Source of the DNA: an uncultured archaeon | GTDB taxonomy: Archaea > Aenigmatarchaeota > Aenigmatarchaeia > GW2011-AR5 | DNA length: 64,000 nucleotides | NCBI GenBank assembly: GCA_964373255.1 | Contig: CAYJTG010000002.1 | Coordinates: forward strand, 30,481-94,480 | Direction: 5' to 3' | Shown: piece after piece, positions 8,184-54,470 of the stretch | Position numbering within the stretch: position 1 is the stretch's first letter | How the letters are laid out: each line of letters opens with the position of its first letter | Made by a program: the position numbers and the translations under genes | Notes under the pieces: model-generated | What the model was told of the DNA's origin: nothing | Database searches by the model: none | What the model saw: only the letters and a program-made list of their open reading frames with translations

Positions 8184-8192
8184 AAACACCTA

Positions 8193-29621: not shown

Positions 29622-29699
29622 ATTCAATTATTGTGGATTCGCAAATATAAACACAATCCACAATGATTTGGTTGTGTTCAGAAAGAACAAGAATCAAAA

Positions 29700-29954: not shown

Positions 29955-29981
29955 CTGCTGATTTTAGAAATTATTTAGAAC

Positions 29982-30953: not shown

Positions 30954-31067
30954 TTAATCGCCCAAATAGACTATTATAATTTCCCTTACTTTATGTATGA
31001 TTCCGACCCCTTAAATAATTTTTGATGTGCGATTTCTGAAGTAATGCAAGGTAAATGCTTATTCACC

Positions 31068-31200
31068 GGCTCTGTTGAAATGCTCAATAAAAGCATCGAC
31101 GTGAGAGCTATTGTCTTTTGACAATAGCTCTAGCTGACCCTTACGTCGATAAGACGTAAGGGTCTACGTCGATGCTTTTTCATAGGTTTTCAACAGAGCC
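31068..31200. mobile_element. MITE-like nested-hairpin element with 8-bp TSD TATTCACC
   Basis: The termini are GGCTCTGTTGAAA.../...TTTCAACAGAGCC. The second stem is GCATCGACGT/ACGTCGATGC. The hairpins are GAGAGCTATTGTC-TTTT-GACAATAGCTCT and GACCCTTACGTC-GATAA-GACGTAAGGGTC, joined by AGCT. TATTCACC occurs at 31060-31067 and 31201-31208, and the right copy contains the stop codon of the next gene. Confidence 0.85.
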
Positions 31201-31203
31201 TAT

Positions 31204-32277: not shown

Positions 32278-32555
32278 ACATCTCGAATTCTATTTGTCCT
32301 GCGTGGTTTAAATTTATCTCAGAAATTGGCTGAATCAGATAGAACACATTATTAAGTCTTTATAATGAAACCAGAAAAGAATCTGGACATGTTTTTCTGG
32401 TTTCACTTACATGGCGAAACTTTGTTTCGCCTGTACAGAAATCGATAGTTTCTTGAAGCAGAGCTCTTTCAAAGCCTGTGTTCGTGCTCGAAGCCAACAA
32501 TTCATCCGCTTGCTGAAGCAATAGGCATTCTTGTTGATGATAGTAAATTCTTCAA

Positions 32556-34237: not shown

Positions 34238-34456
34238 ATGAAATTTAAAATCGTATTAGAAAGGGGAGAAGATGGATACTATACAGCAACAGTACCATCT
34301 CTTCCAGGCTGCATATCGCAGGGAAAGACAGAAGATGAAGCCAAAAAGAATATAAAAGAAGCTATAGAATTGCACCTTGAAAGCCTGGTAGAAGATGGCG
34401 TACCTATTGTTAAGAAAAAAGATACAAAAGAATACGAGCTTCAGGTTACATTATGA
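34238..34456 (+). CDS. hicB: HicB-family antitoxin
   Basis: MKFKIVLERGEDGYYTATVPSLPGCISQGKTEDEAKKNIKEAIELHLE is the hallmark HicB/UPF0150 N-domain. It overlaps the next gene by ATGA. Confidence 0.85.
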   Translation: MKFKIVLERGEDGYYTATVPSLPGCISQGKTEDEAKKNIKEAIELHLESLVEDGVPIVKKKDTKEYELQVTL

Positions 34457-34674
34457 AATTGCCAGTAGTTTCAGGTATGGAAACCATAAAAGCGCTTTCT
34501 AAAATTGGTTATTACGTACGCAATCAGAAAGGTAGTCATGTCCATCTTCGCCATCCAATCAGAAAACCTCTTACGGTTCCGATGCATTCAACAATAGCCA
34601 AAGGTACGCTTAAAGAAATAATCAAAAGTGCTGGCATTACTGAAGAAGAGTTCTTGGAACTTTTGAAAAAGTGA
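34453..34674 (+). CDS. hicA: HicA-family mRNA interferase toxin
   Basis: The stretch ..ETIKALSKIGYYVRNQKGSHVHLRHP...TVPMHS.IAKGTLKEIIKSAGI fits the YcfA/HicA pattern (GSH.h...p). Confidence 0.85.
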   Translation: MKLPVVSGMETIKALSKIGYYVRNQKGSHVHLRHPIRKPLTVPMHSTIAKGTLKEIIKSAGITEEEFLELLKK

Positions 34675-34681
34675 TTTAATC

Positions 34682-35656
34682 ATGCCAGGTTTTTTCCAGA
34701 CGTATTTCATCGACCCGATTTACTACGGCACCGGATATAACATCGTGAATACAGCTGTTTTTGCCGCAATACTGATCGTAGCTGCATTGCTCACGTACAA
34801 GTTGCTAAGAGCGCTGAAGATAAGGATCGACAAAAATTTCTTCTTCGGGATTATTCCATTCATAGCATTAGGCGGCATCCTGAGGAGCTGGGAAGACCTT
34901 TTAGAGTCTGCTGGCGCAACAAGTCTGCTCAATTCTTTGCTTGGAAATTTCGTTCTTGTCGATGCGACAGGCACAGCAAGAAATCTGCTTCTGGTATCAC
35001 CATTGATTTATGTCACCATGTTCTTTGTCGCATTAATTCCGTTATTAATAGCAAAGCTGGCTGAAAAATATTGGAAAATAGCTTATTGGAAATCATGGTT
35101 CACTATAGGAATAATATTAGATGCGATTGTCCTGTCGCAGCTAAGGTTCATCAATACATTTGGTTTCGTGGCGATGGTAGGAATAACGATTTTCTGGGTT
35201 GTTGCCATAATGGCCGTTAAGAAAATTTCAATATGGAAATCTACAAAATTAACAGAAGATAAAAATCCTGCTTTTGCTTCGTCTAAGATCAAGGCGAATT
35301 CTGATAAATCCAGGATTTCTCACTCACATTATTTAAAATTAAGAAATTTCTTCTCGAACGAAAACGTGTTTATCCTGGATGTGCATATGTTTGACGCCAC
35401 AACGACATTTGTATCGCTTTCTTACTTCAGTTACTTTGAGCAGCACGTTTTGCCGAGCTTCTTGATAGGCATTTTTGGACCTGGCATTATGTTTATACTC
35501 AAATTTGTTGTTGTTTCTATTGTCCTTTATTTCTTCGACAAGGAATTAAGCAAAGAAGAAGACCTAGAAAAGCGGACATTCCTCAAGATCGTTGTCCTGA
35601 TTTTAGGCATGGGACCTGGATTAAGGAACTTCTTGAGGCTGGCGATGGGGGTTTGA
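34682..35656 (+). CDS. Polytopic membrane protein (possibly DUF63 family)
   Basis: 324 aa with about 7 TM helices. The N-terminus FIDPIYYGTGYNIVNTAVFAAILIVA resembles archaeal DUF63 proteins. The family call is tentative. Confidence 0.6.
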   Translation: MPGFFQTYFIDPIYYGTGYNIVNTAVFAAILIVAALLTYKLLRALKIRIDKNFFFGIIPFIALGGILRSWEDLLESAGATSLLNSLLGNFVLVDATGTARNLLLVSPLIYVTMFFVALIPLLIAKLAEKYWKIAYWKSWFTIGIILDAIVLSQLRFINTFGFVAMVGITIFWVVAIMAVKKISIWKSTKLTEDKNPAFASSKIKANSDKSRISHSHYLKLRNFFSNENVFILDVHMFDATTTFVSLSYFSYFEQHVLPSFLIGIFGPGIMFILKFVVVSIVLYFFDKELSKEEDLEKRTFLKIVVLILGMGPGLRNFLRLAMGV

Positions 35657-35702: not shown

Positions 35703-36206
35703 ATGTTAAAAATAATTAACGATTTACGCCCGTTCTTTGAGGACTGCTACAGGCGAATAAATGTAAGGGAATACGCAAAGATTGTGCGTATATCACCGCC
35801 GACTGCGTCTTCTATTTTAATGAGCTACAGGTCTGAAGACCTGCTTGTCATGGAAAGGTACAAAAACTATATGCTATTCTTTGCCAATAAAGACAGCAAG
35901 GACTTTATAGATCTGTCGAGGATGTACTGGAGACACAAATTAAACGAACTAATTCGGCTCATCGAGAAGAATTCCATTGATTCTACAATAATCCTGTTTG
36001 GCTCGCTTTCAAAAGCAGAAGTTAAAAATGATTCTGATGCAGACATAGCTATTATTGGCAAAAAGGGGGAGCTGGCTATAAAGCACATTGAAAAAAAGCT
36101 AAAAAGAAAAATACAGCTGTTCTGGTTTGATTCGATAAACAGTATAAAAAACAAGGATCTTGCAAAAAATGTCGTGAACGGTTATGTTTTGTCGGGAAGG
36201 CTATGA
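35703..36206 (+). CDS. Minimal nucleotidyltransferase with N-terminal wHTH (MNT-type antitoxin candidate)
   Basis: IILFGSLSKAEVKNDSDADIAIIG carries the GS...DxD polymerase-beta-type NTase motif. Confidence 0.7.
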   Translation: MLKIINDLRPFFEDCYRRINVREYAKIVRISPPTASSILMSYRSEDLLVMERYKNYMLFFANKDSKDFIDLSRMYWRHKLNELIRLIEKNSIDSTIILFGSLSKAEVKNDSDADIAIIGKKGELAIKHIEKKLKRKIQLFWFDSINSIKNKDLAKNVVNGYVLSGRL

Positions 36207-36631
36207 ATATGGACTGGAAAGAATGCTGCAATAAACAGCTGGTCAAAGACGTAAAGACCGACACAAATATGATAAAATCGCTTGTAAAATCAAGCGACAA
36301 CAAGCTTGAATCAGAAAAAATGCTTGCGATGAATGAAACAACGGCTGCATCCAAGCTTTCTCTTGCGTATGATTCGCTAAGGGAACTTTTGGAAGCTTTG
36401 GCACTCAAAAATGGCTACAAGATCTACAACCATGAATGCTATACGGCATTTCTTAAAGAGATTCTAAAAGAGAGCAACAAAGGAGATGAATTTGACGATA
36501 TCAGAAAAATAAGAAATGCTGTAAATTACTATGGAAAAGAAATATCGGCAAAAGAGACACAAAAAATTATAGACAGGATAAAGACACTAAGAAATTTCGT
36601 ATATAATTTGATTACTATAAATCGCTCATAA
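36203..36631 (+). CDS. HEPN-like protein, partner of the upstream nucleotidyltransferase
   Basis: It has a 4-nt ATGA overlap with the NTase gene, is all-helical, and contains ..IRKIRNAVNYYGKE.. in the position of the HEPN R-x4-6-H motif, but the His is not evident. Confidence 0.5.
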   Translation: MNMDWKECCNKQLVKDVKTDTNMIKSLVKSSDNKLESEKMLAMNETTAASKLSLAYDSLRELLEALALKNGYKIYNHECYTAFLKEILKESNKGDEFDDIRKIRNAVNYYGKEISAKETQKIIDRIKTLRNFVYNLITINRS

Positions 36632-36699: not shown

Positions 36700-39600
36700 T
36701 TACACGACCGTCGAAATACAGTCGGGATTTATATCGCTCACAAAACCTCTATGATAATAATCAAAATTAGTAATAATTGTATTTTCGCCTGCTATTCCAA
36801 GTCCTAATATATCGTTAGCTGTAACGTCGCTCATGTGCTGTGGAGTTAATTTGCTAGATATAGGCTTATAGCTCCAGTGCCAAGGTTCTGTTTTTACAAG
36901 CTTGTCCATATCGTAAGGCTGGCAGAAACCGTAATTTTTTGCATTTGTCTTCAGCCATTCGTAAACAGCTACCTGACACGCGTTCCCCACACATCCTTGC
37001 TGCCACTCAGCAGGATCCACAGAATTTATGTCTACCTCTGTTCCCCAGTGATGTCTTGATAATCCTGGAATAGCTGAATATTCTGCAACCTTGTTCACTT
37101 TTTCTTGTTCTGTGCCTTGTGCAGATGCGAATTTGCTGTTCCATATGCCCAACTGGTCAGTAAACGAACGGTAGCCTGATACTATTACAAAATCGAACCC
37201 TGCCTGTTTTGCAGCAGTTTTCATTGAGTCGAATGCCACCTGGACTTCTGGTTTAAGTCCTGTAAGTATCCCACGTCCCATCAAGTCGGGGTTCTTGGCT
37301 ATTACAGGTGGCAATCCACTATATATGCTGTCAATCAGCGTTCTAAACCTGCTTACGTCCTGTCCCTTAACGTTATCGACATAATTTTTATCGCCTACAG
37401 AGCAGTCGGTATTCCAGCCGTTGTAATACCTGTAAATAGCGTCCCAGCCGCTGTATGAAATGCTGAGACACGTATACAATTTTGCCGGATCGTTTGCGTA
37501 ATCTGTTTTTAGATTAAGGATGTAGTTCACGCCCAGGAATATGTTACAGTCCAAATCGTATGGAAGCTCGCCGTTGCAGCCGTTTGATGATGTGTCGTAC
37601 CACGAAGGATGCGCGACCTGGTTGAGCTGGAATACGCCATAGCCCTTTCCATCGGATGCGCCCAAAACATTGTCTTGGTTCGTGTTCCCGCAGTTAAGCG
37701 TTCCGTCTTTGCAGTGCCTCAGTCCTGATTCCTGAGCTGCTATTTTTAGTATGTTCTCCGCCTCGTTCTTGTCAAAGCCTGCTTCCTTGGCCTGCCTGAT
37801 TATTTTTTCTGCAATATCTCCTGAAAATCGCGTGAACGTTAGTGTTATTCTGTCTGCTGGCGCTGACTCGCATCTTTGTACAGGTATGCCGCGCTCATTC
37901 ACGGCATTTGCATTCCACTTACAAGTCAATTTGCATGCCGCATCTTCTCCTTCGCATGAATTTTCGTTCGGAAACATTGAACACGATCTTACGCCTTCTA
38001 GTCCGCACGAATGGCACACATTACCAACCAATCTCCGCGGTGTGTTCGTAGCTGATTCAAAGGGATCTAATGTTATCTCCCCAGAATACCAGCACTTATT
38101 AGAACCTTCTGAAAAACTATGACATTCATCTGCATCACAGATATTTGTACGACCATCGCCACATTTATTGCACACCTTCTCAAACGGGTCGTATAGAATG
38201 CCCAATCGCGGCGTCACGGGCACGTCCTTTGTCTGCTCCAAGCGGAAGATGTAGCGCGGGAGCTCGGCTGTGATGAAGCTCGACGTGACTGTATTTATTT
38301 CTGTATCGGGCTGGGTTGCGAATTCGCAGATAAAGCCATAGATGGAATTGAACTCGAACGGAAGGACCTCGACTGCGTTCTGGCCTTCCTGTGGCAGTAT
38401 CTCATAAGCAATGGTATCAAAGCCTTCTTTGTAGTACGGATTATTTGGTGCTGCGCGTACTGCCTGCTCGCCGCAGCGCAGGCTGTCGAGCACAGCAATT
38501 TCATGAGGAACACGAATTATGACCTTTGTGCCCCTTGGCAGGACAACCTTGCTTTTATCGCGCGTATTTGATATTGACACAAGCAGCAAAGCGCCCTGGC
38601 CTGTTTGCAACGGCTGCGGCCCGACATTCAGCGACAGCCGCGCAGGCGTGCCCTTGTCGACGGCAAGTACGGGCTTGAACACGGCCTGCCCTTCGCGGAA
38701 CAATCTTTGCAATTCCTGGCTGTTTATCACGCTTACCTGCAGCGAGGAATTTGTCGCGTATGCATAGCTCACGTTGAAGTTTATCTTTGCAAAGTTCGTC
38801 AATCCTCTCTGCTGAGGGAAAAACGATGCTGCCAAAGACTTCACGGTAATTATCTCGCCTGTGCCGCGCGGAAGGTTATCTTTTATATAGAATAACCTGC
38901 CGTTTTTTATGTCGCTGATAATCTTATCCCCAGCAATCCCGTATCTTTCTTTCAGCTCGTTCAGCCTTGCGTCATCCTCAATAGGCACTGGCGAAGTTAG
39001 TTGCACAGATCTTGAGTTACACCACTGGTTGGTGCAGTCGACAGAAACCAAAACGTCTTTTGCGTCCAGAATGCCGTCGTTCTTTATTATAGCCGCCAGC
39101 GCGAATTCCTGGCCGCTTGGCACAGACGGCGGCAGGGCCTCTAAGCTCGCTAATTCAATGCCTTTCGGAAAGTCCAATGGCCGTTCGGGCCTGACGTTGA
39201 CCAACTGCTGCCGTGCGTACCATTCTGTCGGGTTCGTAGCAAGCAGCCAGACGTCTGTTATGGCATTAGACGCGTATCTGTACGCCAGCTCGACAGGCGC
39301 CTTGACCTGGCCGACTGCCTGGTGGAAATATGCGCTGTACGGGCCGAACGCCAGGTAAGAAAGCAGAAGTATGATTATTCCGCCCTGTAGCACGATCTTC
39401 CATCCGCCGTGCTGGTAGAACTGGAAGAGCCCTATGAACCCAAGTATTGCCCACCAGATCCAGAAGCCGGTACTCCCCACGCCATTCATGCCTATGAATC
39501 CCCAATTCTCTGCGCCGAACGCCAGCAAGAAGAGGGCAGCACTGTACCCCATGATTGCTCCTGATGACAGATGTGTTACCCAGTCCAGTGGCTGGAATGA

Positions 39601-42114
39601 ATCTGAGAAATTGAGCAGGAACGTAAATCCAGCGCCTATAATGGGCATCATCCACAGGATCTGGACGTTGTAGCCCACAAACGTGAGCGTGAAGAAGAAC
39701 AAAAGAAGCGTGAACAGCGTTGTTATCGTCCACGGCCCGAATATGAACTGGAAGATGTTGTAAAGTATGTTCGTGCCGGCTGCTCCGCCTGTCTCCAGAG
39801 CGTTGGATGTTATACCAAGACCGCGCATGAATGCATGTCGCATTGTTCGGCCGCGCAGGACAAACTTCTGGGCTATATCGGTTGCATATCCATCTAATGC
39901 AGTTCCCAAGTCAACCTCGTCCGCAGAACCTATAGGCATGCGGTACCTGCGTGCAATACTGACCATTAGAGTTTTTGCCATGTTTTTGAGATAATTTTCA
40001 AGCTCTGCTGCGGCTGATTCTACTCGTTCTGTATAGTCTTTATCTAGAGAGTCACGTGCCTTAATAAAAAGTTCAAGATTTTGTCGTGCTGTGCTTAATG
40101 CATCCAGCATTGCCGGATCATTTCCTGAACTTGTGAGTTGTTCGATAAGAGTACTAGCACCATTTAATAGATCGTTATCTCCCCGTATCTGCCGTCGGCC
40201 AAGGCCTGTTGCTTGTCTGTTTTGTCTTATCATTCTTCTTAGATTTCGCCTAGCTGTTGTTGAGGCTTCTCTTAATTGCTCAGTTTGTTCTCTTCTTGTT
40301 TCGAACTCTGCATTAAGCGGATTAAATATGCTCGAATATTTTGCTCTTGCATATCTGTTCAACATTCTTTTGCCCCTGTTTATGGCTGCAAGCAGATATG
40401 GGTCGCGCTTTAATTCACGCCTTTCAACATCCGTAAGACCTCCTTTGATCCTTTCTCTAACACCTCGTGTCCCTACTGCCGCAGCAGCAGCTCCACGGAT
40501 TCCTCCCTGACTGAGAGGAGACCCTGTCTGATATCGAGCAGCCTGGCCTGGTCTGCGAGTCTTGTCAATACTGGCTTCCTTGTGGTAGAAAGCAACGAGC
40601 TTTACATTGCTTGCGAGATCTATTTCGAGTGTAGGATCCCAATGTGTAACGACATTGTTGCGCACAGATCTTACAAGTCTCTCTTCCTCTGGTTTTGTAG
40701 GATTGTGCATTCTTATGTCGTACATATTTCCAAGGTTTGGAGCTCCCTCGCCCGAATAAGTGATTTCCCAATGATGGAATTTGGCACCAGCAGCTTCTGT
40801 GTCAGCCTTGAAACGATATTTTTGAGGTCCTATATTTAGTGCAGTTCCAGGTAAGCTGAGATAGAAGATCGTGTATGTATTTCTCTCGACAATTTTGTCG
40901 TCAAGGCCCGCCGACTCTAAACCTATGCCGTAATAAGTGCCTCCAAATACTTCTCTGTACCGGGGCGTGAGCCTATCACCTTCTGCTTTTGTTGCCAGAT
41001 ATTGTGTTGTGCGCGCAAGGCTGAAAGGAACTGGACCTTCTGCATCCAAAGAGTCCGATCGCCATTTATCTAAAGTAATCCACTTGGGTTCTCCTCCGTA
41101 ATAAGTATCTAAAATAAGTTTCGTTAAATCTTCATCAGTTATTCCGACTCTTGACAATATTCCTAACAAAGCAACCTCAGCCGCAGCTCTATCTGGATAT
41201 GGACCACTGTTTGCGAATGCCGTAGCTCCTCGCATAGCATGTGATACGCTAGGATGATTTGTATCCACACCGAGGGCAGTCGCATAATTTTTTGGCTTTA
41301 AGGTGCCATGCATTCTGGTAGTGGTTTTTACTTCAACATTTACATGTACCTCTTGCATAGGAGCAGAATCTACCGTGACCATAAAACGAGGCCGTTGTGG
41401 TGGTGTAGGTGGTGGAGGCGGTGGGGGTTCTGGAAATCTTCTTTCTGGATATCGTATTGCAAGCGGATAGGGACCTCTTCTTGCTAGCGGATACTTGCCC
41501 TTTGTTCCTTCTGTTAATTGCTTTGGCGCTTCCCGTCTCTGGTACGGTTGCATATTAGCAGCTGTCACAGGGCCTGCCCGGGCTTCTGGCAGTCTTAATG
41601 GCTCTTGATGCGCTGGCAACAACGCTATGGGTTGCCGACCTGCTGTGAGACGTTTTGCTTCTTCGTGTGCAGGCAACATTAATGGTTCTTCCTGCCTCTG
41701 GTACGGCTCCATGTTAGCAGGTGTCATAGGGCCTGCCCGGGCTTCTGGCAGCTGCCTTGGCGCTCTTGCGTATCTTTGCTGCGCCAGATACTCGGAAGGC
41801 ACGATCATAATTTTTTTGTATGTTATCGGCTTGTCGCCCGCTTTTGTAGAATATAAAGCAGCATAATATTCGTCTTTTTCTTGGATAACTTTTACGCGAT
41901 CTATCGGGTATTTTGTATCGCGCTTGGGTTCGCCGAAAACGACGCCCTCGTCCTCTGTGCCTGGCTGACCGACCCTTACAGGCACGACCTTCATGTTCTT
42001 GCCAAGTATGCCCTTTTCTGGATTTAATTCTTCTGCTACCCGGAAGCCCATTTTAGCCAGGTGCTTAAGCAAAGTCAGGCTCTCTATGGCTGTTAATTCT
42101 TTATCGTCTGCCAT
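36700..42114 (-). CDS. Giant polytopic membrane protein with C-terminal lytic transglycosylase and M15 (VanY-like) peptidase domains
   Basis: The track ORF starts at GTG 42123 and the ATG is at 42114 (MADDKEL). See the sub-features for domain evidence. The order is a ~780-aa cytoplasmic region, a ~6-TM block, two beta-rich modules related to the lipobox paralogs, a Cys-rich region, SLT and then M15. Confidence 0.9.
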   Translation of the reverse strand: MADDKELTAIESLTLLKHLAKMGFRVAEELNPEKGILGKNMKVVPVRVGQPGTEDEGVVFGEPKRDTKYPIDRVKVIQEKDEYYAALYSTKAGDKPITYKKIMIVPSEYLAQQRYARAPRQLPEARAGPMTPANMEPYQRQEEPLMLPAHEEAKRLTAGRQPIALLPAHQEPLRLPEARAGPVTAANMQPYQRREAPKQLTEGTKGKYPLARRGPYPLAIRYPERRFPEPPPPPPPTPPQRPRFMVTVDSAPMQEVHVNVEVKTTTRMHGTLKPKNYATALGVDTNHPSVSHAMRGATAFANSGPYPDRAAAEVALLGILSRVGITDEDLTKLILDTYYGGEPKWITLDKWRSDSLDAEGPVPFSLARTTQYLATKAEGDRLTPRYREVFGGTYYGIGLESAGLDDKIVERNTYTIFYLSLPGTALNIGPQKYRFKADTEAAGAKFHHWEITYSGEGAPNLGNMYDIRMHNPTKPEEERLVRSVRNNVVTHWDPTLEIDLASNVKLVAFYHKEASIDKTRRPGQAARYQTGSPLSQGGIRGAAAAAVGTRGVRERIKGGLTDVERRELKRDPYLLAAINRGKRMLNRYARAKYSSIFNPLNAEFETRREQTEQLREASTTARRNLRRMIRQNRQATGLGRRQIRGDNDLLNGASTLIEQLTSSGNDPAMLDALSTARQNLELFIKARDSLDKDYTERVESAAAELENYLKNMAKTLMVSIARRYRMPIGSADEVDLGTALDGYATDIAQKFVLRGRTMRHAFMRGLGITSNALETGGAAGTNILYNIFQFIFGPWTITTLFTLLLFFFTLTFVGYNVQILWMMPIIGAGFTFLLNFSDSFQPLDWVTHLSSGAIMGYSAALFLLAFGAENWGFIGMNGVGSTGFWIWWAILGFIGLFQFYQHGGWKIVLQGGIIILLLSYLAFGPYSAYFHQAVGQVKAPVELAYRYASNAITDVWLLATNPTEWYARQQLVNVRPERPLDFPKGIELASLEALPPSVPSGQEFALAAIIKNDGILDAKDVLVSVDCTNQWCNSRSVQLTSPVPIEDDARLNELKERYGIAGDKIISDIKNGRLFYIKDNLPRGTGEIITVKSLAASFFPQQRGLTNFAKINFNVSYAYATNSSLQVSVINSQELQRLFREGQAVFKPVLAVDKGTPARLSLNVGPQPLQTGQGALLLVSISNTRDKSKVVLPRGTKVIIRVPHEIAVLDSLRCGEQAVRAAPNNPYYKEGFDTIAYEILPQEGQNAVEVLPFEFNSIYGFICEFATQPDTEINTVTSSFITAELPRYIFRLEQTKDVPVTPRLGILYDPFEKVCNKCGDGRTNICDADECHSFSEGSNKCWYSGEITLDPFESATNTPRRLVGNVCHSCGLEGVRSCSMFPNENSCEGEDAACKLTCKWNANAVNERGIPVQRCESAPADRITLTFTRFSGDIAEKIIRQAKEAGFDKNEAENILKIAAQESGLRHCKDGTLNCGNTNQDNVLGASDGKGYGVFQLNQVAHPSWYDTSSNGCNGELPYDLDCNIFLGVNYILNLKTDYANDPAKLYTCLSISYSGWDAIYRYYNGWNTDCSVGDKNYVDNVKGQDVSRFRTLIDSIYSGLPPVIAKNPDLMGRGILTGLKPEVQVAFDSMKTAAKQAGFDFVIVSGYRSFTDQLGIWNSKFASAQGTEQEKVNKVAEYSAIPGLSRHHWGTEVDINSVDPAEWQQGCVGNACQVAVYEWLKTNAKNYGFCQPYDMDKLVKTEPWHWSYKPISSKLTPQHMSDVTANDILGLGIAGENTIITNFDYYHRGFVSDINPDCISTVV
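36859..37281 (-). other. M15/VanY-type (LAS) zinc peptidase domain
   Basis: IVSGYRSFTDQ is followed by SRHHWGTEVD (the S-x-H-x-x-G-x-x-x-D zinc motif at 37030-37059) and then EPWHW (E-x-x-H). YGFCQPY lies between them. All three metal ligands are present. Confidence 0.85.
37399..37821 (-). other. Family-1 lytic transglycosylase (SLT) domain
   Basis: IAAQESGLRH (catalytic E-S, nt 37713-37740), GYGVFQLN (GLMQ-equivalent) and RYYNGWN (AYNAG-equivalent) occur in the canonical order and spacing. Confidence 0.8.
39319..39771 (-). other. Hydrophobic block of about six TM helices
   Basis: ILYNIFQFIFGPWTITTLFTLLLFFFTLTFVGY...IILLLSYLAFGPYSAYF. Confidence 0.8.
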
Positions 42115-42255
42115 TATTCTCACGACTAGACAAATCTAGCTACATCTATAATCAGCCAGATTCTCTGTAAACCTATTGTAATGGGCGAAATATAAAGTTT
42201 AGAGAAGAAAATCGTTTTAGAAACAGCGCTTATGAATATACTATTACTTTTTGAT

Positions 42256-43662
42256 TTATAATTCTCTTTGTCGGAAAAGCCCTTTTGAGCCGCAGAAAAT
42301 CAGGCCTTTTACGTCATCGCCATATTCTCCTTTGTCTATGGCGTCCTGTACGCGGTCTGCTGCCCTTAAGTAAGGCAGGGGCGTTTCATGTTGCTTGAGA
42401 AATGCTACACTACGCTCGTAGAAACCAAGGATTTCTTGCAGCCTAGGGTAATCAACCCGTTCCAATAAGTCGAAAGTTTTGTTGACAGCCTGCGCATATT
42501 TGGAGACTATTTCAGCAAACTTTCCTTTCTGTTGATGTATTTCAGGGTTTTTATCGAGCTCAAAAAATACAGTCCTTAAAAATGCAGTTTCGTAATTTAT
42601 TGAATTAATGTAATTATACTGGATATTTTTTTCTGAAAGTGGAAGCCCGTCAAATGCGTCTGAAAAAAGCTTGGACATGTCCTGTATGACATCTGAAGAA
42701 TTGAAATCAATGTCGTATTTTGAATGGTCCGCAGGCTGCTCTTCGCGTTTAATTGTTGTTGACTCGGTTACTTTGGGTTGTTCAGGTGTCTGGATTTGTT
42801 TTTCATTGGTATTTGCAACATAATCTTTATCCTCAGGAAGTTGTTTTGCTGCATCTGGAATAGTTAATCCACCATATTTTTGTTCACTTCTAGATGTTTC
42901 ACTAAGAACACCTTGAATGATCTTCTTTACTTTTTCTGGAATATTTCCTATATAATTAATTTGTTCTTCTGAATCTTGTGTTTCGTTTCCTTTTGTGATT
43001 TTTTCCTCTGCAGCCTTTTTCCCAATCAGCTTTTCAAAATCAACATTAAGGTCGCTTTCAGAAATGCTTAGAACGTAATCATTGCTTGCAAGTATTTCTG
43101 CGTGGCGCTTCAGCCTTTCGTCTTCGTTTCCAATGACCTGATTTGCGTATTTCTTGACATTTTCAATATAATCTTTCATCTGATTTTTCTTTATCGCTGC
43201 TGTGTTTTCCGACTTGCATATTGCCGCCATGAACGCCTCTTCGACGCCCATTTCTTCGGCAAGTATATTGTAAGCTTCCATCATTTCGTCGTAATCGACA
43301 TTATAGGATTTTTTGTAATTTTCTTTTATTTCAGCATCAGCCTTTGCGTTTTTTACAAATCCTGCGAAATTTATTTCTGCTTCTGAAGGATTAGTGAAGT
43401 AGGGCTTTGCGTTTTTTGTTATTTCTATGACAGGGCTTTGAAAAACACGGGCTTTCCCTGTAACTCCGGGGATTTCCTTGTCGTTTCTTATAATAACGCC
43501 ATAATGAAAGTTGCCATGGTAATCGACAAGCATGCCAAGAGATTCGAGAATTTTTGATTCATCCACTGTGATAGAATTTTTATAGTCGGGATTAAACAGA
43601 TGCATGCCTCTTATTCCGCGCTTTTCTTCTTTCTCTACTTTTGTATCTGTTGCTTCTGTCAT
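42256..43662 (-). CDS. Hypothetical cytoplasmic protein (468 aa), upstream neighbour of the giant gene
   Basis: ATG start, acidic and Lys-rich, with no TM helix or recognisable motif. Confidence 0.6.
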   Translation of the reverse strand: MTEATDTKVEKEEKRGIRGMHLFNPDYKNSITVDESKILESLGMLVDYHGNFHYGVIIRNDKEIPGVTGKARVFQSPVIEITKNAKPYFTNPSEAEINFAGFVKNAKADAEIKENYKKSYNVDYDEMMEAYNILAEEMGVEEAFMAAICKSENTAAIKKNQMKDYIENVKKYANQVIGNEDERLKRHAEILASNDYVLSISESDLNVDFEKLIGKKAAEEKITKGNETQDSEEQINYIGNIPEKVKKIIQGVLSETSRSEQKYGGLTIPDAAKQLPEDKDYVANTNEKQIQTPEQPKVTESTTIKREEQPADHSKYDIDFNSSDVIQDMSKLFSDAFDGLPLSEKNIQYNYINSINYETAFLRTVFFELDKNPEIHQQKGKFAEIVSKYAQAVNKTFDLLERVDYPRLQEILGFYERSVAFLKQHETPLPYLRAADRVQDAIDKGEYGDDVKGLIFCGSKGLFRQREL

Positions 43663-43719
43663 AAACGATCACGTTCAAAATATAAAAAGAATTTAAATTG
43701 CCAAAACATGCGCTTGGAT

Positions 43720-44091
43720 TTATCTGTAATACCGCATCGGCAGGGATTTTTTTACTCTTTGCACGGCAGCTGCTACTTCTTTGCCATCTTCTGTATCTTT
43801 TGCTCCTTCATAAATGTAGCCTCTTGGCTTGCCCCAGCATATGTCGAATAATCCAAATCTCCACACAGGTCCTGCAAGAGGCGCAACCTTGCCTATGTAC
43901 ACGTCACGATTGGTGTTTTGGTAGTTGCGCGGATTATCTACCTGATCTTGCCGAACGTTTTTGTTAAGTGTGTAATTACGATCACTGAATATATGCCAGA
44001 CGCGGTTGCCACTTGAGTCTTCTGTTCGAGCTAAATCAAATCCTGCCCTTCTGAGAGCTCTTAACATTTTGTGTGTATCTCCAATAGCCAT
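43720..44091 (-). CDS. Hypothetical protein (123 aa)
   Basis: ATG start. The N-terminus KMLRALRRAGFDLA weakly echoes LLKHLAKMGFRVA at the N-terminus of the giant protein. Confidence 0.5.
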   Translation of the reverse strand: MAIGDTHKMLRALRRAGFDLARTEDSSGNRVWHIFSDRNYTLNKNVRQDQVDNPRNYQNTNRDVYIGKVAPLAGPVWRFGLFDICWGKPRGYIYEGAKDTEDGKEVAAAVQRVKKSLPMRYYR

Positions 44092-44155
44092 AATTCATCA
44101 CTATTCAGTAACTTTATATTTATAAGTATTTAAAGATTTCGCCACTTAAAAGTAG

Positions 44156-44446
44156 TTAAATATACCTATACAGGCTTTGGCTGTACACCGCCCGCTTTTT
44201 CTCATTCAGTATTCTCATCTCTATGCTGTCGTCGGTGATGCGCCTTGTTGCCATGTACGTCGCTATCAGATTGATTGGCAACAGGGCCGTGAGCAAGATG
44301 AGTTCGACGTCTGCTTCGCCGTAGCTGTTTATATCGATACGAACGGCCTTTGCAGGCGACCAGTAGGCTGTGATAAATGTTATGTAAAGGACTAGAAAGA
44401 CGGCGAACATCGATAATATTCCTAATACGGCTGCTGATGTTTTCAT
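44156..44446 (-). CDS. Two-TM membrane protein (96 aa)
   Basis: ATG start. Helices AAVLGILSMFAVFLVLYITFITAYW and LILLTALLPINLIATYM. Confidence 0.5.
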   Translation of the reverse strand: MKTSAAVLGILSMFAVFLVLYITFITAYWSPAKAVRIDINSYGEADVELILLTALLPINLIATYMATRRITDDSIEMRILNEKKRAVYSQSLYRYI

Positions 44447-44525
44447 GCATTACCACACCACAAAAATGAAATTAATCTGAATATAATGGAATCGTAACTT
44501 GTGAATATTTTTCGTGTATCTGTTT

Positions 44526-45404
44526 TTAATATACCGTCATGCCTGTGTACGGCTGCATAGCTGTGACAACGCCTGTCTGATTGATCGTCTCTGGAAATTG
44601 TGCAAGGAACACGACAACTACGGCAGCAGAGCCGCTGAACATGGAGTTGTCGCCTGCCTTGAACGTGATTATGTTGTCGCCCAGTCTCAGGTCTGATTTG
44701 TCCAATCGTATGCTCTGCAGGTCGGCGACAGGGCTTTCCCAGACGTTTATTCCGTTAATATCAACTACCAGCGTGCCTACGTTCTCTGTCATGTTCAAAT
44801 CTATTTTCGAGAACTGAAGATTGAGATACTCTTCGCCTAAGTAAAACCTGAACTGGCTGAAGTCATTTTCGAAGCTTGCGTAGTTTACAGTAACGTCGCT
44901 AAGCTTGTATAAATTAGGTGCCCAGATACGCCAGAAAGATGATTCTGGAAATACCTCTATCACGGCTTTTTCTGATAACATGCTGCTGTCTATGGATATT
45001 TCATAGTCGCCAGGGTCGAAAACCCTGCTTTCGATAATTTTCCCGTTGACGCTGATTATGAGCTTGCCGATGTCGTTATTGGACAAAACGGTGAATTTTA
45101 CAGAAGCCGCCTGCAGTCCGGACTTTCTCAGTTCGTACGTTATTTTCTCTTCGCCAAACAGCAGACCGTTCTTTAATTCCTTGTCGCCCAGGTCGATGGA
45201 ATTTGCCTGCAAAACGTCACTTGCTGCGAAAGCTGGTATATAGAAGACCTTTACCGCCTCGATTATGCCTAGATTCCTTGTCTTGTTTTCCGGGCATCTG
45301 TCACTGGTGCACGTACCAACGTATGCGCTGAATGCAGCCAGAAGTATCGCTAATATCATCAGGCCAACTACAAGAAAATACACAAATTCATTATTGCCTT
45401 TCAT
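44526..45404 (-). CDS. N-terminally anchored extracytoplasmic protein (possible class-III/pilin-like signal)
   Basis: ATG at 45404 (TTG at 45410). MKGNNEFVYFLVVGLMILAILLAAF has a short charged head ending in KG followed by a long hydrophobic helix. Confidence 0.55.
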   Translation of the reverse strand: MKGNNEFVYFLVVGLMILAILLAAFSAYVGTCTSDRCPENKTRNLGIIEAVKVFYIPAFAASDVLQANSIDLGDKELKNGLLFGEEKITYELRKSGLQAASVKFTVLSNNDIGKLIISVNGKIIESRVFDPGDYEISIDSSMLSEKAVIEVFPESSFWRIWAPNLYKLSDVTVNYASFENDFSQFRFYLGEEYLNLQFSKIDLNMTENVGTLVVDINGINVWESPVADLQSIRLDKSDLRLGDNIITFKAGDNSMFSGSAAVVVVFLAQFPETINQTGVVTAMQPYTGMTVY

Positions 45405-45410
45405 TACCAA

Positions 45411-45593: not shown

Positions 45594-46781
45594 ATGATGG
45601 ACAGAAGAGAATTTCTGAACTATATGTGTGCACTTGTAGCGACGACGCCGGCTGCGGCTATGGCGTCACCTGTTAGGAATACGGCTGTGTACGCCGCTGC
45701 AAGAAGATACGATTTTCTGACAACTCCTGTATATGATTCGATATACGATCCTATAGGAGAGAACGCAGAAAATATAGCCATGGAGCTCTATCCGAACTCA
45801 TTGCAGGACCTCGTCAGCAAGGGAATAATTACATCGGGCATAAAAGACCTTTCGTTTCCACTTGGGATAAGATACCAGCACAATGGCGGGGAAAGGAAAA
45901 GGGTGGATTTCTACCGCGGGATGCGCGACATGTGGAACGCGAAGCCGGGAATAAAAGGCAGCAGGGCGCTGAAAAGCCAGAGGGATGGGTTCCTGAAAAA
46001 AATCAAGCATGAAAAAAAATCAAGCCTTCGCGAATACAGAAGGAATGAAATAGCGCACGGCATTGAAGTTGCCGGGGAGATCCGGAAAAATATAGACCAA
46101 ACCTATAAAGGCGAGATGGCAAGATTTGCAAGAAACGCTGCAGAAAAGCTTTCGTCAAACGTTTTGCTGGGGTACAATATACATGAAATAACGCCGCCAA
46201 GCTACAACGGCAGGCAGATAAACCCTGTCTTCAAGGCTTATTTTGTCGACCGCTTATTCAAGGAAGCCGGCAAGGAGTTCATAGAAGGCTATCCGGCAAG
46301 GTACGACCCTTACATGAGCTTCGGGCCGTTCCAGATGACAAACTTTGCAATGCCTGTTGCAGCCGGCTTAAACCGGCATGTCGGCAAAGAAGATAGGATT
46401 CCGTATAATGTGCAGGACTTAGAAGGGCTGCAGGACCACGTAAACGCAGCTGTCATGTTTGCACTGTCAAATTTCGTGTCGCTTGGAAATCATCTTTCAG
46501 GGCGCAAGCTCCTGAAAAAGTTCAACGACGGCTTTGAGAAGATGGACGAGCGCAGCCAGCAGATAGTTATATCGGGCACAACGGCCTGCATGCACCACCA
46601 GCCTTCAATAACAAAAAAAAGGATAGGATTCTACGTCGACAAAAAGCCTATGGATGACATGTTCTACAAGATACGTCCATCGCTGACAGACCAGTTGCAA
46701 AAGTACTACGACAGCGCAGCAGAGGCGTATCTGCTGATGAAGGTATTTCACGACCTTGAAGACAAATATTCCAGAGACTAG
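45594..46781 (+). CDS. Secreted protein with twin-arginine (Tat) signal
   Basis: MMDRREFLNYMCALVATTPAAAMASP contains the RREFL Tat motif. The mature part was not recognised. Confidence 0.65.
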   Translation: MMDRREFLNYMCALVATTPAAAMASPVRNTAVYAAARRYDFLTTPVYDSIYDPIGENAENIAMELYPNSLQDLVSKGIITSGIKDLSFPLGIRYQHNGGERKRVDFYRGMRDMWNAKPGIKGSRALKSQRDGFLKKIKHEKKSSLREYRRNEIAHGIEVAGEIRKNIDQTYKGEMARFARNAAEKLSSNVLLGYNIHEITPPSYNGRQINPVFKAYFVDRLFKEAGKEFIEGYPARYDPYMSFGPFQMTNFAMPVAAGLNRHVGKEDRIPYNVQDLEGLQDHVNAAVMFALSNFVSLGNHLSGRKLLKKFNDGFEKMDERSQQIVISGTTACMHHQPSITKKRIGFYVDKKPMDDMFYKIRPSLTDQLQKYYDSAAEAYLLMKVFHDLEDKYSRD

Positions 46782-47140: not shown

Positions 47141-47602
47141 TTACTTTGCACCCTGGAGGTGCTGCCTGAGGTTTGAAATCTGCTTCTGCATGTCTGTCAG
47201 AGTATTCTCGAGCTGCATTATTTCAGGGGTAGCGCCACCCATCTCGCTGATGCTGATGCCTTTTGGCCTCAGAAGTTCTGTGTCTATTTCTGTTATCGAT
47301 TTTTCAACGCGCTGTATGGTGGCTTGCATGATACTAATGGCGTTTGATTTAACAGCCTCGGCCTCGTGTATAACAGCAAAAAACTGCTTGAGAACGGAAA
47401 TAAAGAGCTTTATCTCTTGCACAGTGGACAGGACCTCTTTGTACTTGTCGACCTTGATAAAAAGCGGGGCGCTAAAATCCTGCCGAACAGCGCTGCTGGC
47501 GATGTGCGGCTGACTCGTTGGGATCTCTTCCAGGGGCTCTTCCATTATATCTTTGATGTCCTGCATTTCTGATCGGTAGTCGTCCTTTTTCCTGAACAGC
47601 AT
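47141..47602 (-). CDS. Hypothetical coiled-coil protein
   Basis: ATG start, 153 aa, heptad-like C-terminal half. Confidence 0.5.
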   Translation of the reverse strand: MLFRKKDDYRSEMQDIKDIMEEPLEEIPTSQPHIASSAVRQDFSAPLFIKVDKYKEVLSTVQEIKLFISVLKQFFAVIHEAEAVKSNAISIMQATIQRVEKSITEIDTELLRPKGISISEMGGATPEIMQLENTLTDMQKQISNLRQHLQGAK

Positions 47603-48029: not shown

Positions 48030-48662
48030 CTACTTTATGCTGAGATTTTTCACGTATCTCTTCGATACGTCACTAACTGCTTCCCTTAGCCCAAGCCCAA
48101 GCGCTATGGCAACCCCAAGACCGATCGATCCTATTATGACAAGCAGGATGTTGTTGACCAGCGTTGCGGATATACCCAGAACAGGCAGAGCCAGTGCAAT
48201 TGAGACGTATATAATGAAGAAGAACAGTATCTTTGCGACCAGTATTCCCCACAAGGACTTTGTGGCTTTTATGTGGCCTTTTATGTATTCTCCCAGTGCG
48301 TAGCCCACAACTAGTATAACGGATGCGCCTATTATTCTAGGTATGAATGCGTTTATCTCCGCTACCCATATTGCAAGCTGTGTTATTCCAAGAACCTCTC
48401 TGGACAGTGCTGCAGCAACAAATGCTAGATAGATCCACCATCGTGCAACTACTGAAAACAATTTGCTGAGATGCACGACTGGCTTCTGCGTTTCTGAAAC
48501 GTAGTAGTCCAGCTTCATCTTGTCGAGAGCCTCATTTACGACCCTGCCCACTACTTTTCCTACTACAAGACCTATTACGAGCAGAATCACAGCGCTTACG
48601 AGATTCGGGAGAAACTCCACCGCTCCTGTGGTTAGGTTGGTCAGTACGTCTGCTAATACCAT
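48030..48662 (-). CDS. Polytopic membrane protein with repeated TM-helix motif (mechanosensitive-channel-associated 'conserved TM helix'-like)
   Basis: ATG start. The stretch FLPNLVSAVILLVIGLVVGKVVGRVV recurs as IPRIIGASVILVVGYALGEYI and again later. The family call is tentative. Confidence 0.55.
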   Translation of the reverse strand: MVLADVLTNLTTGAVEFLPNLVSAVILLVIGLVVGKVVGRVVNEALDKMKLDYYVSETQKPVVHLSKLFSVVARWWIYLAFVAAALSREVLGITQLAIWVAEINAFIPRIIGASVILVVGYALGEYIKGHIKATKSLWGILVAKILFFFIIYVSIALALPVLGISATLVNNILLVIIGSIGLGVAIALGLGLREAVSDVSKRYVKNLSIK

Positions 48663-49847: not shown

Positions 49848-49972
49848 GCCGGCTTGGCAGAACTAGGTAAATGCACGTGCCTTGAGTAAATTTTTTAGAA
49901 AAAAGTTTAATCAAAAAACAAGGTCAGCACGAGTGGCTCCGCCACACGCAGGTTCAAATCCTGCAGCCGGCG
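49848..49972 (+). tRNA. tRNA-Ser(UGA) with a 39-nt canonical (37/38) intron
   Basis: Acceptor GCCGGCT/AGCCGGC. The anticodon arm is CGTGC-CTTGAG[39 nt]A-GCACG. The variable arm is AGTGGCTCCGCCACAC and the T arm GCAGG-TTCAAAT-CCTGC. The lengths add up (86+39=125). Confidence 0.85.
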
Positions 49973-54406: not shown

Positions 54407-54470
54407 TTCAATCAAGTAAATTATATGCCCAGATTAATATAAAGCTAATTCTATATTTGTAATTATTAAG

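What the first reader, a model, noticed from the sequence alone, without database searches (positions are those of the whole stretch)
36700..45410. Archaeal five-gene cluster ending in a ~1800-aa membrane protein that displays two peptidoglycan hydrolases
What the sequence shows:
- Five same-strand genes with 57-141 nt gaps run 45404->36700. In order they are an N-anchored 292-aa protein, a 2-TM 96-aa protein, a 123-aa protein, a 468-aa protein and a giant protein.
- The giant protein has a ~780-aa cytoplasmic part. It contains a tandem ~53-aa duplication (RQLPEARAGPMTPANMEPYQRQEEP / LRLPEARAGPVTAANMQPYQRREAP, nt 41524-41757), a PPPPPPPTPP run and Arg-rich coiled-coil-like segments.
- After the cytoplasmic part come about six TM helices and then an ectodomain.
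- The ectodomain has two beta-rich modules related to the neighbouring lipobox paralogs, a Cys-rich stretch, an SLT lytic transglycosylase (AAQES...GYGVFQLN...YYNGW) and an M15/VanY peptidase (SRHHWGTEVD...EPWHW). All catalytic and metal residues are intact.

Established knowledge: SLT enzymes cleave MurNAc-GlcNAc bonds and M15 peptidases cut D-Ala-containing stem peptides. Archaea have no murein.

Inference: the substrate is a bacterial wall. This would be a membrane-embedded, cell-surface wall-breaching or antibacterial device of an archaeon, possibly for contact with a bacterial partner or prey. Hydrolase-bearing channel components are known from bacterial conjugative T4SS and from phage tape-measure proteins. 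No secretion ATPase, relaxase or phage structural gene accompanies this one, and I cannot assign the cytoplasmic 780 aa or the four upstream genes to any family.
Basis: partly seen in the sequence, partly recalled or inferred. Interest (0 to 1): 0.85.

Follow-up and report, generated by a model that had tools for sequence, protein, structure and literature searches.

The report
Membrane-anchored bacterial-wall-cutting enzyme of Aenigmatarchaeota
A tiny symbiotic-type archaeon (Aenigmatarchaeota, DPANN) encodes a giant membrane protein that holds two bacterial-cell-wall-cutting enzymes outside the cell. It belongs to a lineage-wide family that swaps such enzymes on a conserved membrane core, which points to an interaction with bacteria.

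Summary
Five same-strand genes (45404→36700) end in a 1,804-aa protein with this layout:
- a Cys-free N-terminal part of about 780 aa
- five hydrophobic TM helices
- two Ig-like modules
- a Cys-rich stretch
- an SLT lytic transglycosylase
- a VanY/M15B peptidase

VanY is firm (Pfam E = 3e-31, metal and catalytic residues aligned). SLT is supported only at family-profile level: MltC E = 4e-6, an invariant catalytic Glu, and 13 of 22 relatives matching Pfam SLT.

The contig is archaeal and chromosomal. The roughly 20-kb neighbourhood is syntenic on contigs up to 399 kb. There are no viral, phage or plasmid matches, and every named relative comes from Candidatus Aenigmatarchaeota.

The protein belongs to a family of at least 155 clusters with a conserved helical–TM–Ig core. 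After the core comes a glycan cleaver (SLT or glucosaminidase), then a stem-peptide cleaver (VanY, M23 or Amidase_2) or an esterase. Bacterial murein is therefore the likely substrate.

Only the 292-aa anchored protein travels consistently with the giant gene; the three genes between them vary.

Large SLT proteins of DPANN archaea, with the bacterial-host idea, are already published. This is a new variant. The conserved core, the module swapping and the partner gene did not turn up in the four full-text searches I ran. Function is inferred, not shown.

The parts
44526..45404 (-). 292-aa protein with one N-terminal TM anchor and repeated beta-rich units ('A294' family). It is the consistent partner of the giant gene.
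   Evidence: ORF. One TM. Homologues lie upstream on the same strand in 12 of 13 distinct loci that have at least 4.5 kb of upstream sequence, and are directly adjacent in L016 and L017. No Pfam or PDB relative.
44156..44446 (-). 96-aa protein with two TM helices.
   Evidence: Homologues found only in L001, L014 and L020.
43720..44091 (-). 123-aa soluble protein of unknown family.
   Evidence: Homologues in L001, L006, L010 and L011.
42256..43662 (-). 468-aa acidic soluble protein. It evolves fast and only its position is conserved.
   Evidence: No family hit apart from a weak unnamed-PHROG match (phrog_14881, E 8e-4). It shares only a motif of about 50 aa with L004's 316-aa protein (E 6e-4 in a tiny database) and has no significant match to L001's 489-aa protein.
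36700..42114 (-). Giant membrane protein, 1,804 aa from the ATG at 42114. An alternative GTG start at 42123 gives 1,807 aa; the aa numbers below use the 1,807 numbering.
   Evidence: Family of 155 clusters.
41779..42114 (-). N-terminal domain, aa 4-115, on the cytoplasmic side.
   Evidence: Conserved in only 5 family members. No signal peptide.
41398..41760 (-). Pro-rich linker holding the duplicated motif (aa 122-200) and the PPPPPPPTPP run (aa 233-242).
   Evidence: Homologues carry longer 'EQKLLPPHP' arrays at this position.
40534..41397 (-). Second N-side domain, aa 243-530, family unknown.
   Evidence: Conserved in 11 members. No Cys.
39784..40491 (-). Arg/Lys-rich helical region, aa 545-780. 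It is part of the conserved core.
   Evidence: Conserved in 47 members. Its modelled end (aa 690-794) is helical. 17% of residues are R or K.
39319..39783 (-). Conserved block of five TM helices, aa 781-935.
   Evidence: No relative in PDB by sequence profile or by fold.
38179..39318 (-). Juxtamembrane helix plus two Ig-like beta-sandwich modules, aa 936-1315.
   Evidence: AlphaFold pLDDT above 90. Foldseek finds only generic Ig-like tandems. Homologous to the lipobox paralogs.
37849..38178 (-). Cys-rich stretch, aa 1316-1425, with 12 Cys.
   Evidence: Present in 29 members.
37306..37836 (-). SLT-type lytic transglycosylase module, aa 1430-1606, with putative catalytic Glu1465.
   Evidence: The window's copy alone is below the Pfam threshold.
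36862..37257 (-). VanY / M15B zinc peptidase module, aa 1623-1754 (His1691, Asp1698, Glu1746, His1749).
36703..36861 (-). C-terminal tail, aa 1755-1807, which travels with the VanY module.
   Evidence: Found only in the 4 VanY-bearing members.

Best explanation
What it is. The giant gene encodes a chromosomal, lineage-specific (Candidatus Aenigmatarchaeota) polytopic membrane protein. It displays a two-enzyme murein-degrading head on the outside of the archaeal cell.

Proposed topology (inferred):
- The Cys-free N-terminal part of about 780 aa stays in the cytoplasm.
- Five TM helices anchor the protein.
- A stalk of two Ig-like modules and a Cys-rich stretch holds the enzymes away from the membrane.

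Proposed action (inferred):
- The SLT module cuts the MurNAc-GlcNAc glycan.
- The VanY/M15B module trims D-Ala-containing stem peptides.

The archaeon makes an S-layer protein, and archaea are not known to make murein. The substrate is therefore taken to be the wall of a bacterium touching the cell. The device would thin or open that wall locally, for attachment to or exploitation of a bacterial partner or prey, and would release muropeptides at the archaeal surface.

The 292-aa anchored protein is its conserved partner, with an unknown role.

Shown: gene structure, domain identities, conserved catalytic residues, family-wide module swapping, chromosomal synteny and taxonomy. Inferred: topology, enzymatic activity, bacterial target and purpose.
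For: - VanY: Pfam E 2.9e-31, with ligands aligned to solved enzymes.
- SLT: the family profile matches MltC at 3.8e-6 and 6.1e-5 and Slt70 at 0.012, with ES, GxMQ and YNG in register. Thirteen of 22 modules match Pfam SLT.
- Family: 155 clusters, 102 of them at E <= 1e-30.
- Module census in 38 members: SLT 15, M23 7, Amidase_2 5, glucosaminidase 5, VanY 3, esterase 2.
- Module order: glycan cleaver, then peptide cleaver (L004 has SLT plus esterase).
- Outside location of the C-side: homology to lipobox lipoproteins and Cys 3.2% against 0.13% on the N-side.
- Inside location of the N-side: no signal peptide in 50 members, and zinc ribbon and AIG2/GGACT domains occur there.
- Core model: pLDDT 92.
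- Archaeal context: S_layer_C gene at 18019-20751 and intron-bearing tRNAs.
- Taxonomy: named relatives are all Aenigmatarchaeota.
- Chromosomal: synteny on contigs up to 399 kb, none viral.
- Literature: the same idea has been proposed for Woesearchaeota and Pacearchaeota (PMC8204110, PMC9723730).
Against: - No enzyme activity, substrate or localisation has been measured.
- The window's SLT copy does not reach the Pfam threshold on its own, and its AlphaFold model failed (pLDDT 32).
- No bacterial partner of Aenigmatarchaeota turned up in the papers I searched.
- The strongly conserved TM block and the large cytoplasmic part are more than a simple anchor needs, so something is unexplained.
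- Topology rests on indirect arguments. A sixth membrane-crossing by helix 761-794 is not strictly excluded.
Confidence: 0.6

Rival explanations
1. Nutrient scavenging only. The surface-tethered enzymes digest free peptidoglycan debris or dead bacteria, giving a metabolically poor cell amino sugars and amino acids, with no specific living partner.
For: - The family covers nearly every bond type in murein: glycan, amide, cross-bridge and D-Ala. That suits full depolymerisation.
- Tethering keeps the products at the cell surface.
- One member has a cytoplasmic AIG2/GGACT domain that could process gamma-glutamyl peptides.
- Peptidoglycan from dead bacteria has been proposed as an amino-acid source for Pacearchaeota (PMC11537232).
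Against: - No uptake or catabolic genes for muropeptides were seen next to the cluster.
- A membrane-tethered enzyme reaches only material that touches the cell.
- Each protein carries only two enzymes, not a full set.
Confidence: 0.25
2. Trans-envelope conduit. The conserved five-TM block, with the helical cytoplasmic region and the A294 partner, forms a channel or translocation device. The hydrolases only clear a path, as VirB1-type or tape-measure lysins do.
For: - The TM block is the most conserved part, with near-invariant polar residues (GPW, LNFSDSxxPLDWxTH, FQFYQxGG).
- The large, variable cytoplasmic part and the conserved helical region are not needed for a plain anchor.
- In L014 and L025 the membrane part and the ecto part are separate genes.
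Against: - No ATPase, relaxase, pilin or other secretion component lies in the conserved neighbourhood.
- No structural analogue was found for the core.
- Oligomeric state is unknown.
Confidence: 0.12
3. Remnant or part of a mobile element: a conjugative T4SS-like system, or a virus tape-measure or ejection protein with lysin domains.
For: - Glycosidase plus peptidase on a protein with helical and TM segments recalls phage tape-measure or ejection proteins and Gram-positive conjugation hydrolases (my own knowledge).
- Toxin-antitoxin genes and, in L001, a transposase lie nearby.
- There are weak CD1107-like hits 30 kb away.
Against: - No locus in IMG/VR and no core match in phage or plasmid records.
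- The only phage matches are to the VanY domain, at about 30% identity.
- No significant PHROG hit for the giant protein.
- Both flanks are syntenic across many genomes.
- The CD1107 hits are below threshold.
Confidence: 0.03
4. Remodelling of the archaeon's own or an archaeal host's wall polymer, such as pseudomurein.
For: It would remove the need for a bacterial partner. DPANN hosts known so far are archaea (PMC8204110 abstract).
Against: - SLT, glucosaminidase, M23, Amidase_2 and VanY all act on murein-specific bonds (established enzymology).
- Pseudomurein lacks MurNAc and D-Ala.
- The window encodes an S-layer protein.
Confidence: 0.03

Closest known systems
[quoted passage not shown] 2021, PMC8204110; also PMC9723730 and PMC10936187)
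   Same: - Very large DPANN proteins with an SLT/GH23 domain.
- Predicted to be extracellular or membrane-bound.
- Proposed to bind and degrade bacterial walls, implying bacterial hosts or prey.
   Different: - Those were reported for Woesearchaeota and Pacearchaeota; here every named member is from Aenigmatarchaeota.
- The conserved helical/five-TM/two-Ig core, the paired and swapped second enzyme (VanY, M23, Amidase_2, esterase) and the partner gene are not mentioned in the passages I read.
- I could not test sequence membership in fam00969.
Secreted peptidoglycan hydrolases of archaea that kill bacteria (PLoS Biol 2025, PMC12352652)
   Same: Archaeal proteins with bacterial-type murein hydrolase domains, directed at bacteria.
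   Different: - By that paper's title and abstract those are enzymes that archaea produce; this one would stay fixed to the producing cell by five TM helices and has a large cytoplasmic part.
- A text search of that paper found no mention of VanY, SLT, Aenigm* or 'transmembrane', and DPANN only in its reference list.
Bifunctional wall hydrolases of Gram-positive conjugation systems (CwlT, PrgK, TraG of pIP501) and VirB1 (from my own knowledge)
   Same: A membrane-associated glycan-cleaving module plus a peptidase module that opens murein locally for a trans-envelope process.
   Different: No VirB4, VirD4, relaxase or other T4SS genes accompany it. The organism is archaeal, and the target would be another cell's wall.
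Phage tape-measure or ejection proteins and endolysins with lysin domains (from my own knowledge; VanY endolysin hits)
   Same: Helical region, hydrophobic segments and muralytic domains. VanY-type peptidase domains serve as phage endolysin modules.
   Different: No virion genes, no viral contigs and no fold match. Only the VanY domain matches phage genes, at about 30% identity.
Polymorphic toxin/effector architecture (from my own knowledge)
   Same: A conserved delivery or anchoring part with interchangeable C-terminal enzymatic modules across close relatives.
   Different: The modules are wall hydrolases rather than intracellular toxins. No cognate immunity gene is evident downstream.

Membership tests
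VanY / MEROPS M15B D-Ala-D-Ala (LD/DD) carboxypeptidase | Pfam PF02557 match above the gathering score | tested here: met
   108.4 bits against a cutoff of 25, E 2.9e-31, profile positions 4-131 of 132.
VanY / MEROPS M15B D-Ala-D-Ala (LD/DD) carboxypeptidase | Zinc ligands His-x6-Asp and a C-terminal His, plus the catalytic Glu (SxHxxGxAxD ... ExxH) | tested here: met
   SRHHWGTEVD (His1691, Asp1698) and EPWHW (Glu1746, His1749) align with SEHQLGLAVD and EPWHY of 5hnm, 6a6a and 5zhf.
VanY / MEROPS M15B D-Ala-D-Ala (LD/DD) carboxypeptidase | Hydrolysis of the terminal D-Ala (or L-Lys-D-Ala) of stem peptides | not testable with these tools
   Needs an enzyme assay. NCBIfam equivalog cutoffs for named VanY/LdcB subtypes are not reached (42 bits against 400), so the subtype and exact bond are open.
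SLT / GH23 family-1 lytic transglycosylase | Pfam PF01464 match above the gathering score for this copy | tested here: not met
   No SLT hit. The best hits are SLT_3 at 13.9 bits (cutoff 27, E 0.078) and Phage_lysozyme2 at E 0.12.
SLT / GH23 family-1 lytic transglycosylase | Homology to solved lytic transglycosylases at profile level | tested here: met
   The 22-member profile matches MltC 9vi7 at E 3.8e-6, 4c5f at 6.1e-5 and Slt70 at 0.012. Thirteen of 22 family modules match Pfam SLT, best 2.4e-17. P0014 and P0019, which have the same SLT-VanY order, match SLT at 7e-14 and 3e-11.
SLT / GH23 family-1 lytic transglycosylase | Catalytic Glu in the E-S motif; G-L-M-Q and A-Y-N-x-G motifs | tested here: met
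   Glu1465 (AAQES) is invariant in A6 and aligns with the MltC ES motif. GVFQLN and YYNGW occupy the GLMQ and AYNG positions, with substitutions.
SLT / GH23 family-1 lytic transglycosylase | Lysozyme-like fold | tested here: inconclusive
   The AlphaFold model of aa 1420-1807 from a 2-sequence alignment had pLDDT 32 and was unusable.
DPANN large murein-like lytic transglycosylase proteins (fam00969, PMC8204110) | Large DPANN protein with an SLT domain, predicted extracellular or membrane-bound | tested here: met
   1,804 aa, SLT module, C-out topology inferred.
DPANN large murein-like lytic transglycosylase proteins (fam00969, PMC8204110) | Sequence membership in the published cluster and its lineage (Woesearchaeota/Pacearchaeota) | not tested
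Named relatives here are Aenigmatarchaeota only.
Conjugative type IV secretion system (VirB1-like hydrolase component) | VirB4/VirD4-type ATPases, relaxase or other T4SS genes nearby | tested here: not met
   Pfam scans of the window's large ORFs found none. The only T2SSE-type hit is a PIN-KH ATPase 13 kb away. The conserved neighbourhood has none.
Virus tape-measure / ejection protein with lysin domains | Located among virion genes; relatives in viral genomes | tested here: not met
   No PHROG hit, no IMG/VR locus, no phage tblastn match for the core and no specific BFVD fold match.

The most novel reading that the evidence does not exclude
The conserved helical region, the five-TM block and the A294 partner form the core of a so far undescribed archaeon-to-bacterium contact apparatus. 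The swapped hydrolase pairs breach the wall of a specific bacterial host. The membrane core then serves as a conduit or signalling link to the archaeal cytoplasm, for uptake of muropeptides or host material. If so, Aenigmatarchaeota would be cross-domain episymbionts or predators of bacteria, with host range set by the hydrolase modules.
Probability: 0.15. Interest if true: 0.85.

Novelty: new variant of a known kind. Interest (0 to 1): 0.58.

Why it matters
The hosts and lifestyle of Aenigmatarchaeota are not settled in the DPANN papers I searched. DPANN archaea with a known host are episymbionts of other archaea (PMC8204110 abstract).

A phylum-wide, chromosomally fixed family presents paired murein hydrolases on the cell surface. 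That is concrete genomic evidence that these archaea deal with bacterial walls. It also turns the question 'do some DPANN live on bacteria?' into testable experiments, such as enzyme assays on sacculi of co-occurring bacteria and imaging of contacts.

The swapping of modules (SLT or glucosaminidase with VanY, M23, Amidase_2 or esterase) could mark adaptation to different wall chemistries.

The conserved five-TM core has no relative among solved structures. It is a candidate new membrane domain.

On the practical side, public records name these proteins after a single domain ('alpha/beta hydrolase-fold protein', 'zinc ribbon domain-containing protein'), which hides the family.

Tried and rejected
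- Word-index homology search with the full protein found only itself and one relative. The same search with the SLT region alone found nothing, not even itself.
- The first exhaustive profile job failed because the profile exceeded 1,200 positions.
- A two-sequence SLT profile against PDB gave only a spurious summed PCNA hit.
- AlphaFold of the C-terminal 388 aa with a 2-sequence alignment was unusable (pLDDT 32).
- My reading of LysM-like repeats in L004's 316-aa protein was not supported by Pfam.
- The idea that the divergent 395-aa gene is a lysozyme-like enzyme (motif SFGPFQMT) found no support in Pfam or PDB.
- Foldseek of the core against PDB and BFVD returned only generic Ig-like tandems with TM-scores at or below 0.16. 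The TM-block profile found nothing in PDB.
- Profiles of the A294 partner found nothing in PDB or Pfam.
- Viral contigs, phage records and plasmid records gave no match to the core.
- TATA-like hexamers occur in every AT-rich gap. They cannot decide between one transcript and several.
- The genome-contig scan used patterns from the poorly conserved N-side and returned only one locus.
Full report
**Observation**

The five minus-strand ORFs exist as described: 294/292, 96, 123, 468 and 1807/1804 aa. They are separated by AT-rich gaps of 79, 64, 57 and 141 nt. Public gene calls and homologues that start 'MAK...' place the start of the giant gene at the ATG at 42114, giving 1,804 aa.

The N-terminal duplicated motif is 19/26 identical, and the poly-Pro run is at 41398-41427. 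In relatives this segment is a longer array of 'EQKLLPPHP'-type repeats.

**Organism and genomic status**

The window is archaeal:
- Two tRNAs are 90 and 125 nt long, so they carry introns. Rfam finds them and ARAGORN misses them.
- It encodes an S_layer_C protein, DUF63/AliA_AliB, a DUF7343/TrmB regulator, an intein-bearing protein, a PIN-KH ATPase and aminoacyl-tRNA synthetases.

A GTDB genome scan found a relative (44% identity) in a Candidatus Aenigmatarchaeota MAG, with DUF63 in the same downstream position. All eight family members that carry a public name are from archaeal MAGs, seven of them Aenigmatarchaeota.

Twenty-two metagenomic loci carry a relative, several on contigs of 55-399 kb. 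The roughly 20-kb neighbourhood recurs in the same order in many of them:
- an MscS-like 210-aa protein
- a 153-aa protein
- the 292-aa protein and the giant gene
- DUF63 on the opposite strand
- four paralogous proteins of 320-420 aa

No relative lies in IMG/VR contigs. The core has no tblastn match in phage or plasmid records, and the giant protein has no PHROG match. The cluster is therefore chromosomal and vertically conserved, not a mobile element. Toxin-antitoxin genes have been inserted here and there.

**The two hydrolases**

VanY is unambiguous. Pfam gives 108 bits and E = 2.9e-31. In alignments with solved VanY/LdcB enzymes, His1691, Asp1698, Glu1746 and His1749 are in register.

SLT needed more work. 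The window's copy alone is below threshold (SLT_3 E = 0.078), and a two-sequence profile found nothing real. An iterated search within the family found the module in about 39 members. A 22-member alignment has an invariant Glu, which is Glu1465 in 'AAQES'. Its profile matches MltC (E = 3.8e-6 and 6.1e-5) and Slt70, with the ES, GxMQ and YNG motifs aligned. Thirteen of the 22 modules match Pfam SLT directly, best 2.4e-17. The assignment is therefore supported by transitive homology. The fold could not be checked because the model was poor.

**The family**

An exhaustive profile search with the core (aa 243-1320) found 155 clusters at 50% identity. Of these, 102 scored E <= 1e-30, and many are 1,400-1,970 aa long.

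Domain mapping gave these counts among the 152 sequences:
- second Ig-like module: 97
- first Ig-like module: 127
- TM block: 83
- helical region: 47
- the two N-terminal domains: 5 and 11

The helical region, TM block and two ecto modules are therefore the conserved parts.

After the core, a Pfam census of 38 members found SLT (15), Peptidase_M23 (7), Amidase_2 (5), glucosaminidase (5), VanY (3) and esterase (2). In individual proteins the order is a glycan cleaver followed by a stem-peptide cleaver or an esterase:
- SLT-VanY
- SLT-Amidase_2
- glucosaminidase-M23
- glucosaminidase-Amidase_2
- SLT-esterase

Apart from the esterase, these are all murein enzymes. The recurring pairing is the strongest argument that bacterial peptidoglycan is the substrate.

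**Topology and structure**

A 56-sequence alignment gave a confident model of aa 690-1320 (pLDDT 92.4, pTM 0.77). It shows cytoplasmic helices, five hydrophobic TM helices, a long juxtamembrane helix and two beta-sandwich modules. Foldseek finds only generic Ig-like tandems, such as integrin legs, transglutaminase barrels and the AglB C-domain, with TM-scores at or below 0.16. The TM-block profile has no PDB relative.

Several lines support N-in/C-out:
- None of 50 full-length members has an N-terminal signal peptide.
- Zinc ribbon and AIG2/GGACT domains occur on the N-side.
- The ecto modules are homologous to the four downstream paralogs, three of which start with a lipobox signal.
- Cys content is 0.13% before the TM block and 3.2% after it. 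In the window the counts are 0 and 26.

The TM block has near-invariant polar residues and motifs. It may do more than anchor the protein.

**The upstream genes**

The 292-aa anchored protein is the consistent partner. It lies upstream on the same strand in 12 of 13 distinct loci with enough upstream sequence, and is directly adjacent in two of them. It has no known relative.

The 96-aa and 123-aa proteins recur only in closer relatives. The 468-aa protein is barely conserved. The 'five-gene cluster' is therefore a conserved pair with variable filling. In L014 and L025 the membrane part and the ecto part of the giant protein are separate genes.

**Interpretation**

The best-supported reading is a membrane-anchored, surface-displayed pair of murein hydrolases that acts on the wall of bacteria in contact with the archaeal cell. 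Three questions remain open:
- whether the purpose is attachment to or exploitation of a living bacterial partner
- whether it is harvesting of wall material
- whether it clears a path for a conduit formed by the conserved core

**Comparison with published work**

Large extracellular SLT proteins in Woesearchaeota and Pacearchaeota, and the inference of bacterial hosts or predation, are published (PMC8204110, PMC9723730, PMC10936187, PMC11537232). Archaeal peptidoglycan hydrolases that kill bacteria have been shown experimentally (PMC12352652).

My four literature searches turned up no description of three things:
- this Aenigmatarchaeota family with its conserved membrane core
- the systematic pairing and swapping of the hydrolase modules
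- the partner gene

I rate it a new variant of a known kind, of moderate to good interest.

Noticed in passing
window 28365-33719 (-) and 34682-35656 (+): Four paralogous proteins (387, 357, 323 and 420 aa) lie in a row. At least three start with a lipobox signal (FVAGC, ISGC, LSGC). They sit next to DUF63, which one data source lists under the name AliA_AliB. The order is conserved in L006, L007, L009, L010, L015 and L025. They share the two Ig-like modules of the giant protein. The start of the 357-aa ORF looks mis-called.
   Followed up: partly
window 45594-46781 (+): A divergently transcribed 395-aa protein has a twin-arginine-like signal (DRREFL). It is not part of the conserved synteny. 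It has 26 relatives, one fused to bacterial SH3_3/SH3_4 domains and one from the bacterium Aureispira. It has no Pfam or PDB relative. It may be a transferred, wall-related exported protein.
   Followed up: partly
window 34238-34674 and 35703-36631 (+): Toxin-antitoxin-type pairs lie between the giant gene and DUF63: HicB/HicA, and a nucleotidyltransferase (Polbeta/NTP_transf_2) with a 142-aa partner. Other loci have different pairs (for example a PIN-like protein in L004) at the same spots, so these sites look like insertion hot spots.
   Followed up: partly
window 25084-25173 (-) and 49848-49972 (+): Two tRNA genes of 90 and 125 nt, so intron-containing. Rfam finds them, but ARAGORN in bacterial mode misses them.
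   Followed up: no
window 2536-6987 (-) and 9458-17521 (-): Two further giant ORFs (1,483 and 2,687 aa) have no Pfam family. The larger has internal repeats, seen as paralogous antisense ORFs, and shares a segment with the 434-aa protein at 53111-54415.
   Followed up: no
window 928-2517, 7362-8189, 8193-9353 (-): Three related proteins. The C-terminal ~115 aa of 928-2517 and 7362-8189 are 59% identical. They have weak, sub-threshold hits to the mobile-element protein family CD1107-like (E 0.004-0.03).
   Followed up: no
window 25896-28217 (+): A 773-aa protein with an intein (LAGLIDADG_3, Intein_splicing) and a PHP_C-like end. It is 69% identical to a protein in L017.
   Followed up: no
L014 1738-4593 and 5761-7821; L025 6804-9242 and 9989-13210: In these loci the giant protein is split. 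A protein of 812-951 aa carries the 4-5 TM helices, and a separate protein carries the ecto modules and hydrolases. Small genes lie in between.
   Followed up: no
P0015 aa 4-139 (family member, not in the window): An AIG2/GGACT (gamma-glutamyl cyclotransferase-like) domain sits at the cytoplasmic N-terminus of one family member. It could act on gamma-glutamyl-linked stem peptides if these were imported.
   Followed up: no
window 47141-47602 and 48030-48662 (-): A 153-aa protein and a 210-aa protein with mechanosensitive-channel TM helices are conserved just upstream of the cluster in most related loci (41-73% identity).
   Followed up: no
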